DNA of 64,000 bases from Escherichia phage vB_EcoM_ESCO49, in the sequence record OM386663.1; one strand, 5' to 3'. The translations under genes and the position numbers were made by a program. Positions 54,342 to 59,861 of the stretch are shown piece after piece. Under the pieces are notes generated by a model. It saw nothing but the letters and a program-made list of their open reading frames with translations. It was not told the DNA's origin and did no database searches. Position 1 is the stretch's first letter; each line of letters starts with the position of its first letter.

Positions 54342-54598
54342 GTAAGCCTCTTTTAAGTAACTATTAAGTTTTAATCTTTTATCTTAACGTATTCTATACG
54401 TTATACTTTAAAGCTTTTTAAAAGCTATTAAATAATCTTTTAAGAGTTTTAAAGTATCTGTATAGTTAAACTGTTAAGTAACCTTTTAAGTAAAAACCCA
54501 CTTCGCAAAGATTAACACCTTGTCAAGTACATTGTCAACTTGCTTTTTATAATTTTTTGCAGTAATGTATGAGGTTAATGATTGTAGAGGGAGTAAAA

Positions 54599-57298
54599 AT
54601 GGAAAACGTAGATTTTAAAAACTTACATTTAGTTGGCGATACAGAAACTGATGGTTTGCTCCTTGAGTTCACTAAAGTGCACGTAATGGCTTTCGCAGAC
54701 TATAAATCTGACGATGAAGAGCCACCTGTATGGGTCTTTACAGATGAGCCTATCCTCGGTCACAAGTACACTAAGTACATCAAGGGTGGTTTGCGTGAAG
54801 GTGTTGAGTTTGCGTTAAAGGCAAAACGTCTTTGCATCCATAACGGTCTAGGTTATGACTGGTGGGTTTTCAATCACATTGCACCGGATTTATGGAACTT
54901 TGATAATCCAAAGTGTAAGCCGTGGAGTAATTTCTTTCAGGATTCTCTTATCCAGTCCCGTGTTCAGTGGATGGATAGACCAACTCCAAAGGGTTATAAA
55001 GGTGCTCATGGCTTGGCTGCATGGGGTGCTCGTGTTGGTGTTCGTAAACCAGAGATTGAGCATTGGGGTGTGTGGAATGCAGAAATCTTCACTCGTGTTG
55101 TAGAAGATATCCGTATTAACGCCAAAACTAAACGGGCACTTGATAATGAATATCTCAAGCTTAAGAAGTGTGGCATAGACACTTATGAAACCTACATGCG
55201 AGCTAAAGAAACATCTTTCTGGATGAGTCAACAAGCTATCAATGGTTGGAAAGCTGATAAAGAGCTTATGGAGTTCCATGTGAAGGAACTTGACAAGTTG
55301 ACTAATGAGCTTGCTTCAGAGGTTGAACCACATCTACCTCCAACTATTAAGACTAAAGGTAAAGTCACTGGAGAAGAGTTTGCAAAAGCTTGGAATGAGT
55401 ATGTTGAAACATTTGGTCATGCAGATGGACTGAAAAGAATTACCAAGTACCCTAAGACAAAGTATCGTCAGCAGGTACGTAACGGTGAGATGCAAACATA
55501 CGAAATCAAACCATTTGGTAAGCCAACTACAAAGATTTTTAACATTGAAAAGAGAAATTGCTATACACCAACCAACTCTGTAACTGGTGAAGAGTACAAG
55601 GAAGGTTTTGTAGCAATGAAGGATGCTCGTGCAATTTGCAATGAGTTGAATGCAAAGATTGGTAAGAAGTGCAAAGACTGGAAGCCAGTAAAAACAGTCA
55701 AAACTGTGAAGTATTATAACAGCCACGTTGTTAACCACTTTGAACTTGAGTCAAGTCGCTACACAGGTTTGATTGATGCACCATATACACCAATTGAGTT
55801 TGAAGTTTCTCGTATGACTCAGGTAGCAGTTGTTAAAGACTACTTGAAATCAGTTGGTTGGATTCCAGATGACTGGAACTACAAGAAAGACTCAGACGGT
55901 CGCCCTGTCAAAGTTTGTCGTTTCAAAGACAATAAAAAGATGATTACAAAACATCCTAAGTGGCAGGAGATGGTTGAACGGTGTGGTTTGAGTTATGTTG
56001 AACATGAAGGTGTACAGTACATTGAGCATAACTGGTCTGTGAAGAAATACACAGATTTGCTTGAACCTTGCTTAATCCGTACTTCACCAAAACTTACTGA
56101 ATCATCTTATGACACGATTGAAGGTGAGCTTGGACAGAAGATTGCGAAATACTACACTTTGATGCACAGACGCAGAACTATTGAGAACTCAAAGGATGAT
56201 GAAAAAGGTTGGTTAAACCAGATTCGTCCCGATGGTCGCCTTAGTGCTGGTGCAATGGTGTTTGGTACTTCAACTGGACGTATGACACAATATGGTATTG
56301 TAAACGTACCATCTGGTGCTGCTGTCTATGGAGCACCTATGAGGGAGGTTTGGATTTGTGAGGAAGGGACTAATGTTGTCTCTGTTGATATGAACTCAGC
56401 CCAGCTAGTTCTTCTTTGTAACTTTATGGGTGATAAAGAGTTCACTAAAGCGGTAACGCAAGGTAAAGAAGAGATTGAGTTCATTCGTCAAGAAGATGGA
56501 CGCTATTACTGTAAACATTTTGATGAGTACCTCAATCCAGAGATTGATAAGTACCTTCGCTATGACTCTGAGAATGACCTGTACGTTGTCTATTCAGGGA
56601 CTGATGCACATACACTGAACAGTATCTACTTTAGCTTGAACGATGAGCAGGACATCTTGACTTGTCGAGCTACTCAGGATGAGAACCTTCTTCATGAGAT
56701 TAGCAAAGGTCGTAAGAAAGCTAAGAATGGTATCTATGCACTGCTGTTCGGTGCAGGTGACGAGAAGTTTGCTAAGACGATTAAAGCTGCAACTACTCAG
56801 GAAGGTGCGCTAACTAAACAGACTTACTTTATTCGTTTGCCTAAAATTAAGAAGCTGTTAGATGACTTGGAAGCTGACTACAAAGCAACTAAAAAGGCAC
56901 TTGAAGAGGTATTTGGTAAGACTGCTGCAATTTCTAAAGGGGGTTTTGTAAAGGTTGCTGGAGCTTGGTTGTGGTGTAAATCTCCACATAAGTTATTGAA
57001 TTATTTGCTCATGGGTTCGGAAAGTCAGATTCAGAACGAGGCAATTAACCTTGCTTGTAGAAGAGCATGTGAAGAAGGATTGACAAAATTAAATGGACGA
57101 AAACCAGCAATCGGTGCTAGGCTTTTGCTGGCATACCACGATGAAAACAGTTGGGAATGCCCAGAAAGTATGACTCAAGAAGTTAAAGCCATAACTGACT
57201 GGATGTATGGTCAGGCATCTAAGAATTTAGGTTTGAAGAGTGAGACGCTTGTAACTGGCACAGGTAAGGTTGGTAAGAGCTGGTATGAGGTACACTAA
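54599..57298 (+). CDS. DNA polymerase, family A, with 3'-5' exonuclease domain
   Basis: Track ORF trimmed to the ATG after an AGGGAG RBS; Exo I motif GDTETDGL; polymerase motifs A (VSVDMNSAQL), B (RKKAKNGIYALLFGAG) and C (YHDENSWE). Confidence 0.85.
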   Translation: MENVDFKNLHLVGDTETDGLLLEFTKVHVMAFADYKSDDEEPPVWVFTDEPILGHKYTKYIKGGLREGVEFALKAKRLCIHNGLGYDWWVFNHIAPDLWNFDNPKCKPWSNFFQDSLIQSRVQWMDRPTPKGYKGAHGLAAWGARVGVRKPEIEHWGVWNAEIFTRVVEDIRINAKTKRALDNEYLKLKKCGIDTYETYMRAKETSFWMSQQAINGWKADKELMEFHVKELDKLTNELASEVEPHLPPTIKTKGKVTGEEFAKAWNEYVETFGHADGLKRITKYPKTKYRQQVRNGEMQTYEIKPFGKPTTKIFNIEKRNCYTPTNSVTGEEYKEGFVAMKDARAICNELNAKIGKKCKDWKPVKTVKTVKYYNSHVVNHFELESSRYTGLIDAPYTPIEFEVSRMTQVAVVKDYLKSVGWIPDDWNYKKDSDGRPVKVCRFKDNKKMITKHPKWQEMVERCGLSYVEHEGVQYIEHNWSVKKYTDLLEPCLIRTSPKLTESSYDTIEGELGQKIAKYYTLMHRRRTIENSKDDEKGWLNQIRPDGRLSAGAMVFGTSTGRMTQYGIVNVPSGAAVYGAPMREVWICEEGTNVVSVDMNSAQLVLLCNFMGDKEFTKAVTQGKEEIEFIRQEDGRYYCKHFDEYLNPEIDKYLRYDSENDLYVVYSGTDAHTLNSIYFSLNDEQDILTCRATQDENLLHEISKGRKKAKNGIYALLFGAGDEKFAKTIKAATTQEGALTKQTYFIRLPKIKKLLDDLEADYKATKKALEEVFGKTAAISKGGFVKVAGAWLWCKSPHKLLNYLLMGSESQIQNEAINLACRRACEEGLTKLNGRKPAIGARLLLAYHDENSWECPESMTQEVKAITDWMYGQASKNLGLKSETLVTGTGKVGKSWYEVH

Positions 57299-57359
57299 TT
57301 AGTATTGACAAGGTGCTCAGGGAAGAGTACCTTATACTATATCTTGTATAGGAGGGCTT

Positions 57360-57578
57360 ATGACACTTTCAGAGATTGAAGTTCAGTTGCAATGTGCTGG
57401 TTATTCTCAAAAAGAGATTGAAGGAATGTTTATTGTTCTTTGCAGTGGTTCTAGAAATTTGAAGGTAAGTCCTGAATTTCTTCGTCGAGTAGATATCTTT
57501 ATTGCTGGAGGCAAAATTGCAAAAGACAAGACAGGGTACTTAAAAGGTGAACGTGTAGACATCGAGAATTTGCTATGA
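57360..57578 (+). CDS. small protein, paralogue 1 (shared C-terminal GGKIAKD(K/R)TG.LKGER.DI motif)
   Basis: 72 aa; C-terminus IAGGKIAKDKTGYLKGERVDIENLL matches the 57766..57999 product. Confidence 0.5.
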   Translation: MTLSEIEVQLQCAGYSQKEIEGMFIVLCSGSRNLKVSPEFLRRVDIFIAGGKIAKDKTGYLKGERVDIENLL

Positions 57579-57784
57579 GCCACCGTGGAAGAACCCATGC
57601 AGCGATGATGAAAGGTGCTTCAAAGGAAACTATCAAGAATCGTAAACAGAAGTTGTTTGAGAGAATGAACAGGTTAATTGACAATTCATCTCTTTCAGGT
57701 TCTGAGAAGGTTTTCTTGAAAGGTAATCTGAAAAGCATTGCACAAGAACTTATTGACATTGAGTATTGGAGACATCAAAAATGA
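57575..57784 (+). CDS. small basic hypothetical protein
   Basis: 69-aa ORF between the two paralogues; ATGA overlaps on both sides. Confidence 0.4.
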   Translation: MSHRGRTHAAMMKGASKETIKNRKQKLFERMNRLIDNSSLSGSEKVFLKGNLKSIAQELIDIEYWRHQK

Positions 57785-57999
57785 CACTTGCAGACGTTAT
57801 TCAGCAACTTCACGACAATTGCTACACTCCAGAGATGATTCAGGAGATGCCCATTGTAGTGATGCCTAGTAAGTTTGTAAAAGCTTTTAATGGTGATGCT
57901 TTAAGGTCTGCGCATATCCTTATTGTTGACGGTAAGATTGCAAGAGACCGTACAGGAGTCCTTAAGGGTGAACGTATTGATATTCTGGAGTTGATATGA
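57766..57999 (+). CDS. small protein, paralogue 2
   Basis: 77 aa; C-terminus VDGKIARDRTGVLKGERIDILELI. Confidence 0.5.
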   Translation: METSKMTLADVIQQLHDNCYTPEMIQEMPIVVMPSKFVKAFNGDALRSAHILIVDGKIARDRTGVLKGERIDILELI

Positions 58000-58265
58000 A
58001 TAGACTGTATAGTCTCTGGAGAAGTATTATGTGGAAAGCAGTAATTGCACTTGGTGTTATTTTTCTATCTGGCTGCAATCCTTCTTATGAAGATAAAAAT
58101 GCTTCTTACAGTCTCCCACCAGAGATGCAAGATTGCATAGTCTATGAGTTATATGGTGATACTACAAGTAGAGATATTGTTGTTGTAAGATGTCCAAACT
58201 CTCAAACAACAACATCTTATAGCTATGGCAAAAATGGCCAATCACATACTACGGTTATTGAGTGA
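57996..58265 (+). CDS. putative lipoprotein
   Basis: 89 aa; signal peptide with lipobox FLSGC. Confidence 0.45.
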   Translation: MNRLYSLWRSIMWKAVIALGVIFLSGCNPSYEDKNASYSLPPEMQDCIVYELYGDTTSRDIVVVRCPNSQTTTSYSYGKNGQSHTTVIE

Positions 58266-58272
58266 GGTTTTC

Positions 58273-58482
58273 ACGATGGAAGTCCTAGTAAACTATATCT
58301 ATCGTTATGATGTTGTTCACTCCACTACAACCATAGCTCAACGTAATCCAATCGTCCCACGAGAAGGTGAGTTTGTTCGCATTGAGGGTTGGACTTACAC
58401 TGTGGAAAGCATCATTCATAAGTTTGATGTTGCTGGCGATGTTCAAGTTATCGACGTAGAAATTGGTAGTAAGAGAAAATGA
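58273..58482 (+). CDS. small hypothetical protein
   Basis: Track ORF 58225..58482 trimmed to the ATG after a GAGG RBS. Confidence 0.35.
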   Translation, partial: TMEVLVNYIYRYDVVHSTTTIAQRNPIVPREGEFVRIEGWTYTVESIIHKFDVAGDVQVIDVEIGSKRK

Positions 58483-59579
58483 CAACACTGTACAAACAAA
58501 ATAAAGATGGCTCTTTCAACGTCTGGTCATGTACTGCTGTAGGTGATAAAGTTATTACAACCTACGGTAAAGAAAATGGCAAGATGATGTTTGAAGAGTA
58601 TACAGCAGAACCTAAAAACATCGGTAAAAAGAATGAGCGTAACGCTGAACAGCAAGCTCTCTTTGAAGTTGCTGCTAAGTATAAAAAGCAAGTTGACCGT
58701 AAAGGGTATGCTTACACAAAAGAGTCTGCACAGAATACTGAAAAGGTAGGTGTACAGCTTGCTCATGATGCTGCAAAGGTTAGTCATGCAAAGTATCTGA
58801 AGTTCCCTGCTGATGCCCAACCAAAACTTGATGGTGTCCGTTGTAGAATTTCAAGAGATGCTGATTCAGTCAGTTTCACAGCTTATTCTCGTGAGAATAC
58901 TGTTTACAACGTTCCAGCAGAACTAATTCCAGATTTGCTTTTGTTGCTTAAATTACATCCACAAGTTGAAGACTTTGATGGTGAGATTTATGCTCATGGT
59001 TGGGACTTAGAAGATATTGTGTCTATGGTTAAGAATGCTGACAATCCAGACCGTCACCTGCTTAAATTCTACTGGTATGATATCTGTGACAATTCAAAAT
59101 CTTGGCCTGAGCGTCGTGAAGTTATTGATAACTCACCCATTGTTGAACTTGGGGATACCTGTAGAGTTGTTCCTGTACAGACTGTCCGTGTAAATTCTTG
59201 GGAAGAGTTTGATGAAGCTCACGATAAGTGGGTTGAAGCTAAGTTTGAAGGTGCAATGTACCGTTCAATCTCTGAAGACTCCTTCTATGAGTGTTGTCAC
59301 CGTTCATACTTCTTGATTAAGCACAAGAAGATGCACACTGAAGAGTTTAAAGTGACTGGTGTCAAGACCGATAAGCGTGGTCATGGTAAGTTCGTTGTAG
59401 AGACTCTTCCTAACGTCTTTGTAGATGTCTCATGGAAGACTACTCATGAGAAGAAACAGTATCTTGCTGAACATCCTGAAGAGTTTATCGGGAAACCTTT
59501 AACGGTTCAGTTCCAGAAGATGACTCGTAAGGGTTCTTTACAGTTTCCTGTTGGCCTCGTTATTCGAGATTATGAATAA
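58479..59579 (+). CDS. ATP-dependent DNA ligase
   Basis: 366 aa; adenylation motif I KLDGVR in AQPKLDGVRCRI; T7-ligase-like size. Confidence 0.75.
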   Translation: MTTLYKQNKDGSFNVWSCTAVGDKVITTYGKENGKMMFEEYTAEPKNIGKKNERNAEQQALFEVAAKYKKQVDRKGYAYTKESAQNTEKVGVQLAHDAAKVSHAKYLKFPADAQPKLDGVRCRISRDADSVSFTAYSRENTVYNVPAELIPDLLLLLKLHPQVEDFDGEIYAHGWDLEDIVSMVKNADNPDRHLLKFYWYDICDNSKSWPERREVIDNSPIVELGDTCRVVPVQTVRVNSWEEFDEAHDKWVEAKFEGAMYRSISEDSFYECCHRSYFLIKHKKMHTEEFKVTGVKTDKRGHGKFVVETLPNVFVDVSWKTTHEKKQYLAEHPEEFIGKPLTVQFQKMTRKGSLQFPVGLVIRDYE

Positions 59580-59861
59580 AAGTTGTTGACATAAAAAATT
59601 TGGTGAGTATACTGAGCAGCATAAACCAACGGGTACTCACCAGCATCACTTAAGAGTCTTTTAAGAGGGTTTTTAAGTGATGTCCAGTGTTGTATGGTTT
59701 GGTATGGTTTGGTAAGGTAGGGTTTGGTAAAGTATGGAAGGATGGCAGTAGCCTTATAAAAAATCTGCCAAGTAAGCTATAAAATCTGTTGACAAGTCAG
59801 GTGTTATAGCTTATTTTTATACTCAATGTAATACAAAATTTAATATAACTTTGAGGTCATT

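What the first reader, a model, noticed from the sequence alone, without database searches (positions are those of the whole stretch)
57360..57999. Two small paralogues with a shared GGKIAKD(K/R)TG.LKGER.DI C-terminus flanking a basic 69-aa gene
The 72-aa and 77-aa proteins share a 25-residue C-terminal motif but differ at the N-terminus. They bracket a small basic protein with ATGA-type overlaps, directly downstream of the DNA polymerase. The arrangement looks like a duplicated module of unknown function, possibly polymerase accessory factors.
Basis: seen in the sequence. Interest (0 to 1): 0.4.

Follow-up and report, generated by a model that had tools for sequence, protein, structure and literature searches.

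The report
Paralogous small phage genes after polymerase
Two old gene copies of an uncharacterised 72-residue protein family, separated by an unrelated small basic gene, sit just after the DNA polymerase of a Felix-O1-like phage; they are real, conserved genes, but they are ordinary catalogued "hypothetical" phage genes and nothing shows that they help the polymerase.

Summary
The window is a Felixounavirus (Felix O1-like) phage. The three ORFs are real and are joined by ATGA overlaps. Purifying selection acts on all three (dN/dS 0.05-0.16).

The two flanking proteins are full-length paralogues. Both are 72 aa, because the second starts at ATG 57781, not at the TTG that gives 77 aa. They are 40% identical over all 72 residues without gaps, N-termini included, and both match PHROG 4230. 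The basic middle gene (PHROG 5180) is unrelated and travels independently. It also occurs in Erwinia Ounavirinae and in T4-like Karamvirus phages that lack the paralogue family.

Relatives carry A1-B-A2, A1-B, B-A2 or A2 alone. Every related locus examined keeps at least one A copy, and a conserved 60-nt intergenic element precedes whichever gene comes first. So the indels are precise, ORF-sized events at the ATGA junctions.

A polymerase-accessory role is not supported. A phage with a 63%-identical polymerase has no A gene, and A subtypes swap between phages whose polymerases are about 92% identical.

My best guess, at low confidence, is a non-enzymatic binding protein made during the replication phase.

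The parts
57299..57359 (+). Conserved intergenic element between the polymerase stop and the first small gene. It contains TTGACA (57305-57310), a hairpin-forming inverted repeat, TATACT (57333-57338) and the Shine-Dalgarno AGGAGG. It is the presumed promoter/leader of the small-gene string.
   Evidence: It is 93-100% identical in nucleotides across Felixounavirus and Mooglevirus, while flanking genes are 82-98%. In relatives it precedes whichever gene comes first, A1, B or A2. The predicted hairpin has dG -19.3 kcal/mol, z -1.8. It occurs once in the window. The 22-nt spacing between the hexamers is not sigma-70-like, and the scan did not call it a promoter. Function is inferred, not shown.
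57360..57578 (+). Paralogue A1: 72 aa, PHROG 4230, compact alpha/beta protein.
   Evidence: phrog_4230 E 3.5e-36 over the full length. It is 92-99% identical to hypothetical proteins of ESCO45, JH2 and Sf19. dN/dS is 0.08. The AF2 model has pLDDT 89 and pTM 0.76. An A1-type copy is present in 66 of 253 phage records.
57575..57784 (+). Gene B: 69 aa, basic, three-helix protein, PHROG 5180. It is unrelated to A1/A2 and its start and stop share ATGA overlaps with A1 and A2.
   Evidence: phrog_5180 E 2.3e-46. dN/dS is 0.05, and variable sites by codon position are 16/9/45. The AF2 model has pLDDT 86 with helices at 3-13, 17-36 and 42-68. It is 100% identical to Felix O1 ORF94. Homologues at 50-59% identity occur in Kolesnikvirus and Karamvirus.
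57781..57999 (+). Paralogue A2: 72 aa from ATG 57781, PHROG 4230, the orthologue of Felix O1 ORF93.
   Evidence: phrog_4230 E 3.4e-41. It is 40% identical to A1 over 72 aa. dN/dS is 0.16. It was found in 254 phage records. Felix O1 ORF93 is transcribed, with its maximum at 25 min together with polymerase ORF96 and ligase ORF88 (PMC3185647 Table 3; gene map).
57996..58265 (+). Next gene in the same ATGA-coupled string: an 89-aa predicted lipoprotein (lipobox LSGC), PHROG 902. It is context only, not part of the paralogue pair.
   Evidence: ATGA overlap with the A2 stop. phrog_902 E 3.5e-16. It is conserved in relatives, but its N-terminus varies through an indel.
54569..57298 (+). Family-A DNA polymerase gene (909 aa), the upstream neighbour. 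It is context only.
   Evidence: ORF. It is 98% identical to the UAB_Phi87 DNA polymerase.

Best explanation
What it is (shown). This is a string of small, translationally coupled genes transcribed in the polymerase-to-ligase block of a Felix-O1-like phage. A1 and A2 are ancient paralogues of a lineage-restricted 72-aa alpha/beta protein family (PHROG 4230). B is an unrelated, independently distributed basic three-helix protein (PHROG 5180).

How the arrangement arose (partly shown, partly inferred). A1-B-A2 is the fullest form of a cassette array. Relatives carry A1-B, B-A2 or A2 alone. The same conserved intergenic leader abuts whichever gene comes first, so the differences are precise ORF-sized indels whose breakpoints fall in the ATGA junctions. 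One class of breakpoint falls in the 14-nt shared 5' end of the paralogues, ATGACACTT(T/G)CAGA. The duplication predates the split of Felixounavirus and Mooglevirus. Most lineages then lost one copy, but every related locus examined keeps at least one.

How it most likely works (inferred, low confidence). A proteins are non-enzymatic binding proteins made alongside the replication enzymes. The beta-hairpin and the following loop, GKIxKDxTGxLKGE, are conserved in both paralogues and would carry the common activity. The N-terminal helices are conserved within each paralogue but differ between them, and would set partner specificity. On this reading the two copies recognise different variants of a target, either a host factor or a phage DNA-metabolism protein. 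The A proteins are not obligate polymerase subunits, and B is not their obligate partner.
For: Real genes. dN/dS is 0.08, 0.16 and 0.05. Variable sites peak at + strand third codon positions, and the antisense ORF is broken by stops in L006 and L007. Felix O1 ORF93 is transcribed.

Paralogy. A1 and A2 are 40% identical over 72 aa, E 8e-16, and both match phrog_4230.

Restricted family. An exhaustive HMM search of 1.84 billion representatives found only 12.

Conserved position. Wherever longer contigs show the context, the A gene lies between polA and the ligase.

Cassette indels at ATGA, with the same leader in front of A1, B or A2.

Crossover signature. A2 has the A1-like codon 4 (TCA, Ser) in 9 of 11 loci where it is polymerase-proximal. 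It has GCA (Ala) in 17 of 17 loci where it follows B.

Ancestry. A1 in the window is 89% identical in nucleotides to A1 in Sf13-like Mooglevirus, close to the 82-87% of the flanking polymerase and ligase genes.

Copy numbers. An A1-type copy occurs in 66 of 253 records, and about 35 records hold two A copies. B occurs in about 202 Felix/Moogle-type records.

Independence of B.

Structure and divergence pattern. The A1 model is confident (pLDDT 89). Twelve of 21 positions in residues 46-66 are conserved in both paralogues, and 13 of 23 positions in residues 1-23 are type-specific.

Remote homology to phiEco32 gp100. Foldseek probability 0.93, TM 0.60. HMM E 2.6e-4 against 958 phiEco32 ORFs. hhalign 95%, E 3.5e-8.

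Against: The binding-protein model rests only on small size, the absence of an enzyme-like fold and the conservation pattern.

The crossover signature is a single nucleotide, and the loci are not phylogenetically independent. Ancestral-then-lost is therefore not proven against assembly by recombination between A1-B and B-A2 genomes across B.

The 'at least one copy' rule comes from 32 loci. The record counts cannot test it, because those records were themselves found by searching with A or with DNA that includes A.

The claim that the leader is a promoter is untested. Its hexamers are 22 nt apart.
Confidence: 0.55

Rival explanations
1. Polymerase accessory factors. A1 and A2, with or without B, bind the phage family-A DNA polymerase and act as processivity or assembly subunits.
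For: The genes lie directly downstream of polA, and their position between polA and the ligase is kept even in distant relatives (L033, L036, L038). Felix O1 ORF93 peaks at 25 min together with polymerase ORF96 and ligase ORF88. Every Felix/Moogle-type locus examined keeps at least one A.
Confidence: 0.12
2. Counter-defence or host-takeover proteins. Each A subtype neutralises a variant of a host protein (a defence system or DNA-metabolism factor). Carrying two subtypes broadens host range, and cassette swapping reflects an arms race.
For: The proteins are small and lineage-restricted. At least four subtypes (A1, Moogle-type A1, Michonne-type, A2) occupy one locus in otherwise about 92% identical replication modules. 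The region is hypervariable, with HNH endonuclease genes and indels. Type-specific conserved residues suggest different specificities. The phiEco32 homologue lies in that phage's early-gene region, by gene position, and is sporadic, present in only 13 records.
Against: Every related locus examined keeps at least one copy, and selection within each subtype is strongly purifying. That pattern looks more like a core function than a dispensable accessory. No match to any described family was found. No anti-defence library was available, and PADLOC holds defence proteins, not anti-defence proteins. No literature evidence turned up.
Confidence: 0.28
3. The trio is a recent recombinant, not an ancestral arrangement. 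An A1-B genome (Mooglevirus-like) and a B-A2 genome (Felix-like) crossed over within the shared B gene.
For: Both parental architectures exist and share B at 87-98% nucleotide identity. The window's B is 98% identical to Felix-type B but only 87% to Sf13-type B, while its A1 is closest to Sf13-type A1 outside its own clade. Only about 35 of 253 records carry both copies.
Against: A1 in the window is 89% identical in nucleotides to Mooglevirus A1, which is close to the divergence of the flanking polymerase and ligase (82-87%) and not a recent import. A2-only genomes carry an A1-like nucleotide at position 10, which implies an earlier A1-B-A2 parent. The leader upstream of A1 is the same in all architectures.
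Confidence: 0.2
4. A and B form an obligate two-component unit, for example a toxin-antitoxin-like pair or a heteromeric complex duplicated around B.
For: The genes are tightly packed with ATGA overlaps, which suggests coupled translation and fixed stoichiometry. B is next to an A gene in 21 of 32 related loci.
Against: Eleven of 32 loci have A2 without B. phiEa104 and CC31 have B without any A. B may lie before or after A.
Confidence: 0.04

Closest known systems
PHROG 4230 (phage orthologous group, function unknown)
   Same: A1 and A2 both match the 72-position profile end to end (E 3.5e-36 and 3.4e-41). A1 is 99% identical to a protein of phage ESCO45. A2 is 92% identical to that of phage Mushroom, and Felix O1 ORF93 sits at the same map position.
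   Different: Nothing differs. The window's genes are ordinary members. The presence of two diverged subtypes in one genome is not recorded in the family description available here.
PHROG 5180 (function unknown); Felix O1 ORF94
   Same: B matches over the full length (E 2.3e-46) and is 100% identical to Felix O1 ORF94.
   Different: Nothing differs. The family is wider than Ounavirinae: it includes Karamvirus CC31 p143 and Erwinia phage Cronus at about 50% identity. Some records leave the gene unannotated.
phiEco32 gp100 (phi32_100, UniProt B0FIR2), an uncharacterised 73-aa protein of Kuravirus and Grimontviridae phages
   Same: It has the same fold by Foldseek (probability 0.93, TM 0.60) and is a profile-level homologue (hhalign 95%, E 3.5e-8 over columns 2-59; HMM E 2.6e-4). 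It shares the N-terminal TLxxV helix and the hIIIDGxhhKxRxG hairpin.
   Different: It has a 17-residue N-terminal extension. It ends right after the hairpin, so it lacks the LKGERxDI tail. It lies in the early-gene region, not next to the polymerase, and is found in only 13 phage records. Its function is equally unknown.
Small genes 5.5, 5.7 and 5.9 downstream of the T7 DNA polymerase gene (host-factor inhibitors). This is an analogy from general knowledge and was not tested here.
   Same: Both are short ORFs packed directly after a family-A polymerase gene and expressed with the replication genes.
   Different: No sequence or fold similarity was found. Whether the A or B proteins inhibit anything is unknown.

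Membership tests
PHROG 4230 | Full-length match to the family profile HMM | tested here: met
   A1 E 3.5e-36 (residues 1-72 on profile 1-72) and A2 E 3.4e-41.
PHROG 5180 | Full-length match to the family profile HMM | tested here: met
   B E 2.3e-46, residues 1-69 of 69.
phiEco32 gp100-like proteins (remote branch of the A family) | Profile-profile homology together with the same predicted fold | tested here: met
   hhalign 95% probability, E 3.5e-8. Foldseek BFVD probability 0.93-0.95, TM 0.58-0.60. It is the top hit among 958 phiEco32 ORFs, E 2.6e-4. The C-terminal LKGER motif is absent from gp100.
DNA polymerase accessory / processivity subunit | Co-occurrence with the orthologous polymerase across the lineage | tested here: not met
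   phiEa104 has a polymerase 63% identical to the window's and no A-family ORF (best E 0.87 among 1369 ORFs).
DNA polymerase accessory / processivity subunit | Fold of a known processivity factor (sliding clamp, thioredoxin or similar) | tested here: not met
DNA polymerase accessory / processivity subunit | Physical binding to the polymerase and an effect on synthesis | not testable with these tools
   This needs a pull-down or a biochemical assay.
Obligate two-gene module (A with B) | Strict co-occurrence and fixed order of the two genes | tested here: not met
   A occurs without B in 11 of 32 loci. B occurs without A in Kolesnikvirus and Karamvirus. B can lie before or after A.
LuxR/GerE-type helix-turn-helix (a lead from memory for B: 'GAS.ETIKNR..KL') | Match to the Pfam HTH profile, or a fold match to an HTH domain | tested here: not met
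   No Pfam HTH hit at E of 1 or below. Foldseek against PDB gave no hit below E 2. The PDB sequence profile returned only weak, non-significant hits, mostly designed coiled-coil peptides.
Known anti-phage defence proteins (PADLOC) | Match to a PADLOC model | tested here: not met
   A1 and A2 gave no hits. B gave one weak hit, E 0.0036 to the end of a 558-position model.

The most novel reading that the evidence does not exclude
The A family is a new-fold protein, restricted to Felix-O1-like phages, that these phages cannot do without: every related locus examined keeps at least one copy. Its subtypes are exchanged as precise cassettes because they protect or adapt the replication machinery against variable host factors. 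A phage carrying both A1 and A2 would then have a broader host or defence range than a single-copy relative.
Probability: 0.15. Interest if true: 0.55.

Novelty: new member of a known kind. Interest (0 to 1): 0.25.

Why it matters
As it stands this matters little. The genes are near-identical to 'hypothetical proteins' already deposited for hundreds of Felix-O1-like phages and are already grouped in PHROGs.

There are four modest gains:
- Annotation. The start of A2 is corrected. B is a real gene that some records miss or replace with a spurious antisense ORF.
- Family structure. The two flanking genes are full-length paralogues, every related locus examined keeps at least one, and they have a remote relative in phiEco32-like phages.
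- A clean example of how small phage genes are gained or lost as exact ORF units at ATGA start/stop overlaps.
- A confident predicted fold with no solved counterpart, which is a reasonable target for structure determination.

Felix-O1-like phages are used for Salmonella typing and biocontrol. If the A subtypes do affect host range, that would have practical value.

Tried and rejected
Searches that found nothing useful:
- Pfam, NCBIfam and PADLOC scans of A1, A2 and B gave nothing meaningful.
- PDB sequence-profile searches gave nothing.
- Foldseek against PDB for B returned only generic helical hairpins at E above 2.
- The AlphaFold-database library was not available.
- Rfam found nothing in 57200-58300.
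- Literature searches found no functional study of these genes. There is only the Felix O1 RT-PCR timing table and annotation tables.
- A viral-contig scan for gp100 relatives returned only phiEco32 itself.

Ideas considered and rejected:
- That the antisense ORF 57499-57759 (annotated in UAB_Phi87 as Phi87_100) is the real gene. It is broken by stops in relatives, and the variation follows + strand codon phase.
- That the 77-aa TTG start is used. Every homologue starts at the ATG.
- That loss of A1 is tied to the HNH endonuclease gene next to the polymerase. HNH is present or absent in every architecture.
- That the upstream element is a standard sigma-70 promoter. Its hexamers are 22 nt apart and the scan did not call it.
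- That the 75- and 83-aa genes preceding A in distant relatives L033 and L036 are further A copies. They gave no HMM hit at E of 1 or below.

Full report
**Identity of the window and the genes.**
DNA from 57300-58300 matches 274 phage records. Nearly all are Felix-O1-like myoviruses (Ounavirinae: Felixounavirus and Mooglevirus), and the best full-length match is UAB_Phi87 at 94%. The local map on the + strand is as follows:
- family-A DNA polymerase, 54569-57298
- a 61-nt spacer
- A1, 57360-57578
- B, 57575-57784
- A2, 57781-57999
- a predicted lipoprotein, 57996-58265
- a 68-aa gene, 58276-58482
- DNA ligase, 58479-59579

A1/B, B/A2 and A2/lipoprotein are each joined by an ATGA start/stop overlap.

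**Checking the observation.**
The ORFs, the overlaps, the basic middle protein and the shared C-terminal motif are all there. Two details are wrong.

First, the ORF finder's 77-aa product starts at a TTG inside B. The conserved start is ATG 57781. This is the start annotated in UAB_Phi87, Mushroom and Felix O1, and every homologue begins MTL or MTI. So both paralogues are 72 aa.

Second, with that start the two proteins align over all 72 residues without a gap at 40% identity (BLASTP E 8e-16). The alignment includes the N-terminus, MTL(S/A)(E/D)(I/V)..QL....Y. They are full-length paralogues, not proteins that share only a tail. Both match PHROG 4230 end to end, and B matches PHROG 5180.

**Are they genes?**
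Among relatives, median pairwise dN/dS is 0.08 for A1, 0.16 for A2 and 0.05 for B. Variable sites fall mainly on + strand third codon positions: 19/13/39, 13/11/42 and 16/9/45 for positions 1/2/3. The 86-aa antisense ORF at 57499-57759 is annotated in UAB_Phi87 in place of B, but it is interrupted by stops in two Mooglevirus loci, so it is spurious. In Felix O1 itself B is ORF94 and A2 is ORF93. ORF93 was detected by RT-PCR with its maximum at 25 min, like polymerase ORF96 and ligase ORF88 (PMC3185647, Table 3).

**Distribution and architecture.**
An exhaustive profile search of 1.84 billion representative proteins found only 12 representatives of the A family. Where longer contigs show the context, the gene lies between polA and the ligase, including in distant relatives L033 and L036.

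In the phage collection, A2-type copies occur in 254 records. A1-type copies (at least 60% identical to A1) occur in 66 of 253 records, and about 35 records hold two copies.

Thirty-two related loci show these architectures between polymerase and ligase (subtypes):
- A1-B-A2: the window and UAB_Phi87
- A1-B: Mooglevirus
- a third subtype followed by B: Michonne (54% identical to A2, 42% to A1)
- B-A2: 14 loci, including Felix O1
- A2 alone: 11 loci

Every one of these loci has at least one A.

B behaves independently. It is missing from a third of the loci. It is present at 54-59% identity in Erwinia Kolesnikvirus phages and at about 50% in T4-like Karamvirus CC31 and Erwinia phage Cronus. No A-family ORF was detected in the whole phiEa104 genome or in the 6-kb CC31 region around B. 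The trio is therefore not one module.

**How the variants arose.**
The spacer after the polymerase reads TTGACAAGGTGCTCA(G/T)GGAAGAGTACCTTATACTATATCTTGTATAGGAGG-N4-ATG. It is 93-100% identical across both genera, more conserved than the flanking genes at 82-98%. It directly precedes whichever gene comes first: A1, B or A2. The differences between genomes are thus exact ORF-sized indels with breakpoints in the (T)ATGA junctions.

Where A2 is polymerase-proximal it begins ATGACACTTTCAGACG. The T at position 10 (Ser4) is the A1 state. Where A2 follows B it begins ATGACACTTGCAGACG (Ala4). The counts are 9 of 11 against 0 of 17 loci. This fits deletion of A1 and B by a crossover within the 14-nt shared 5' end of the paralogues. 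The marker is a single nucleotide, and the loci are not phylogenetically independent.

The A1/A2 divergence (dN 0.64, dS about 1.2) far exceeds the divergence between genera. A1 in the window differs from Sf13-type Mooglevirus A1 (89% nucleotide identity) about as much as the neighbouring polymerase and ligase do (82-87%). I therefore favour an old duplication with later losses over a recent recombinant origin. The latter is not excluded.

**Structure and remote homology.**

Foldseek against predicted viral structures finds, apart from an orthologue, two uncharacterised proteins of phiEco32-like phages (probability 0.93-0.95, TM about 0.6). Independently, the A-family HMM picks phi32_100 as the top hit among all 958 phiEco32 ORFs (E 2.6e-4). 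Profile-profile alignment with four gp100 relatives gives 95% probability, E 3.5e-8. That branch lacks the LKGERxDI tail, sits among early genes, is present in only 13 records and has no known function.

B is predicted as a short helix plus a long helical hairpin (pLDDT 86), with no informative structural match.

**Function.**
Nothing in Pfam, NCBIfam, PADLOC, PDB sequences or the searchable literature assigns a function.

The polymerase-accessory idea has positional and timing support only. Three things count against it:
- phiEa104 has a polymerase 63% identical over 894 residues and no A-family ORF anywhere in its genome.
- Subtypes 40-54% identical replace one another in phages with about 92% identical polymerases.
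- The phiEco32 relative lies far from that phage's polymerase.

Comparing 28 A1-type and 121 A2-type sequences gives 21 positions conserved in both. These are concentrated in the hairpin and loop (12 of 21 positions in residues 46-66). A further 22 positions are conserved within each type but differ between them, concentrated in the N-terminal helices (13 of 23 positions in residues 1-23).

From this I infer a small non-enzymatic binding protein with a common functional loop and a subtype-specific face. It is made during the replication phase and acts on a host or phage DNA-metabolism factor. Whether that is a housekeeping role or counter-defence cannot be decided here. Retention of at least one copy and purifying selection point to the former. 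Cassette swapping in a hypervariable region points to the latter.

**Verdict.**
The duplication reading is right, the 'module' reading is wrong, and the polymerase-accessory reading is unsupported. These are ordinary, already catalogued hypothetical phage genes. They come with a tidy evolutionary story and an unmatched predicted fold. Interest is low to moderate.

Noticed in passing
window 57299-57359: The spacer after the polymerase stop is more conserved (93-100% nucleotide identity across two genera) than the genes around it. It contains TTGACA and TATACT 22 nt apart and an inverted repeat that folds as a 15-bp interrupted hairpin (dG -19.3 kcal/mol, z -1.8). It is unique in the window and has no Rfam match. 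It could be a promoter, an RNA processing or stability element, or an operator.
   Followed up: partly
window 57499-57759 (- strand); L001 4200-4514: The UAB_Phi87 GenBank record annotates an antisense ORF (Phi87_100, called 'unique' in PMC4837284) and omits gene B on the + strand. The phiEa104 record also leaves its B homologue (L042 4001-4204) unannotated. The antisense ORF is broken by stops in relatives.
   Followed up: yes
L002 812-1116 (phage Mushroom); also L012, L019, L020, L022, L027, L032: In several relatives the polymerase gene is split at residue 724/725 by a 270-800-nt insert. In Mushroom the insert is a group I intron (Rfam RF00028, 62 bits). Many relatives also carry an HNH endonuclease gene between the polymerase and the conserved spacer. 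The window has neither.
   Followed up: partly
window 57996-58265: The gene after A2 encodes an 89-aa protein with a lipoprotein signal (…VIFLSGC…). UAB_Phi87 and Felix O1 have an extra 48-aa ORF (ORF92) and about 125 more bases here, so the N-terminus of this gene differs between relatives. The window's form is shared with L010, L011 and L014.
   Followed up: no
window 59586-59613 and 59789-59823: Two more TTGACA…TATACT sites lie just downstream of the ligase gene, one with a standard 16-nt spacer and one with 23 nt. Together with 57305 they are the only three such sites in 64 kb (0.6 expected by chance).
   Followed up: no
phage records MG065664.1 ('Campylobacter phage A132') and one Staphylococcus-labelled record: These records carry Felixounavirus sequence (A2 at 87.5% identity in MG065664.1). 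They are probably mislabelled or contaminated entries.
   Followed up: no
L033 5774-7352; L036 576-2706: In the most distant relatives the A gene is preceded by an unrelated 75- or 83-aa gene. In L033 its start and stop coordinates coincide with the stop of that gene and the start of the DNA ligase gene. So the 'between polymerase and ligase' position is older than the Felix/Moogle split.
   Followed up: partly
proteins P0028, P0029, P0155 (metagenome assemblies): A few database members of the A family have frameshifted C-termini or internal deletions. They may be assembly errors or pseudogenes.
   Followed up: no
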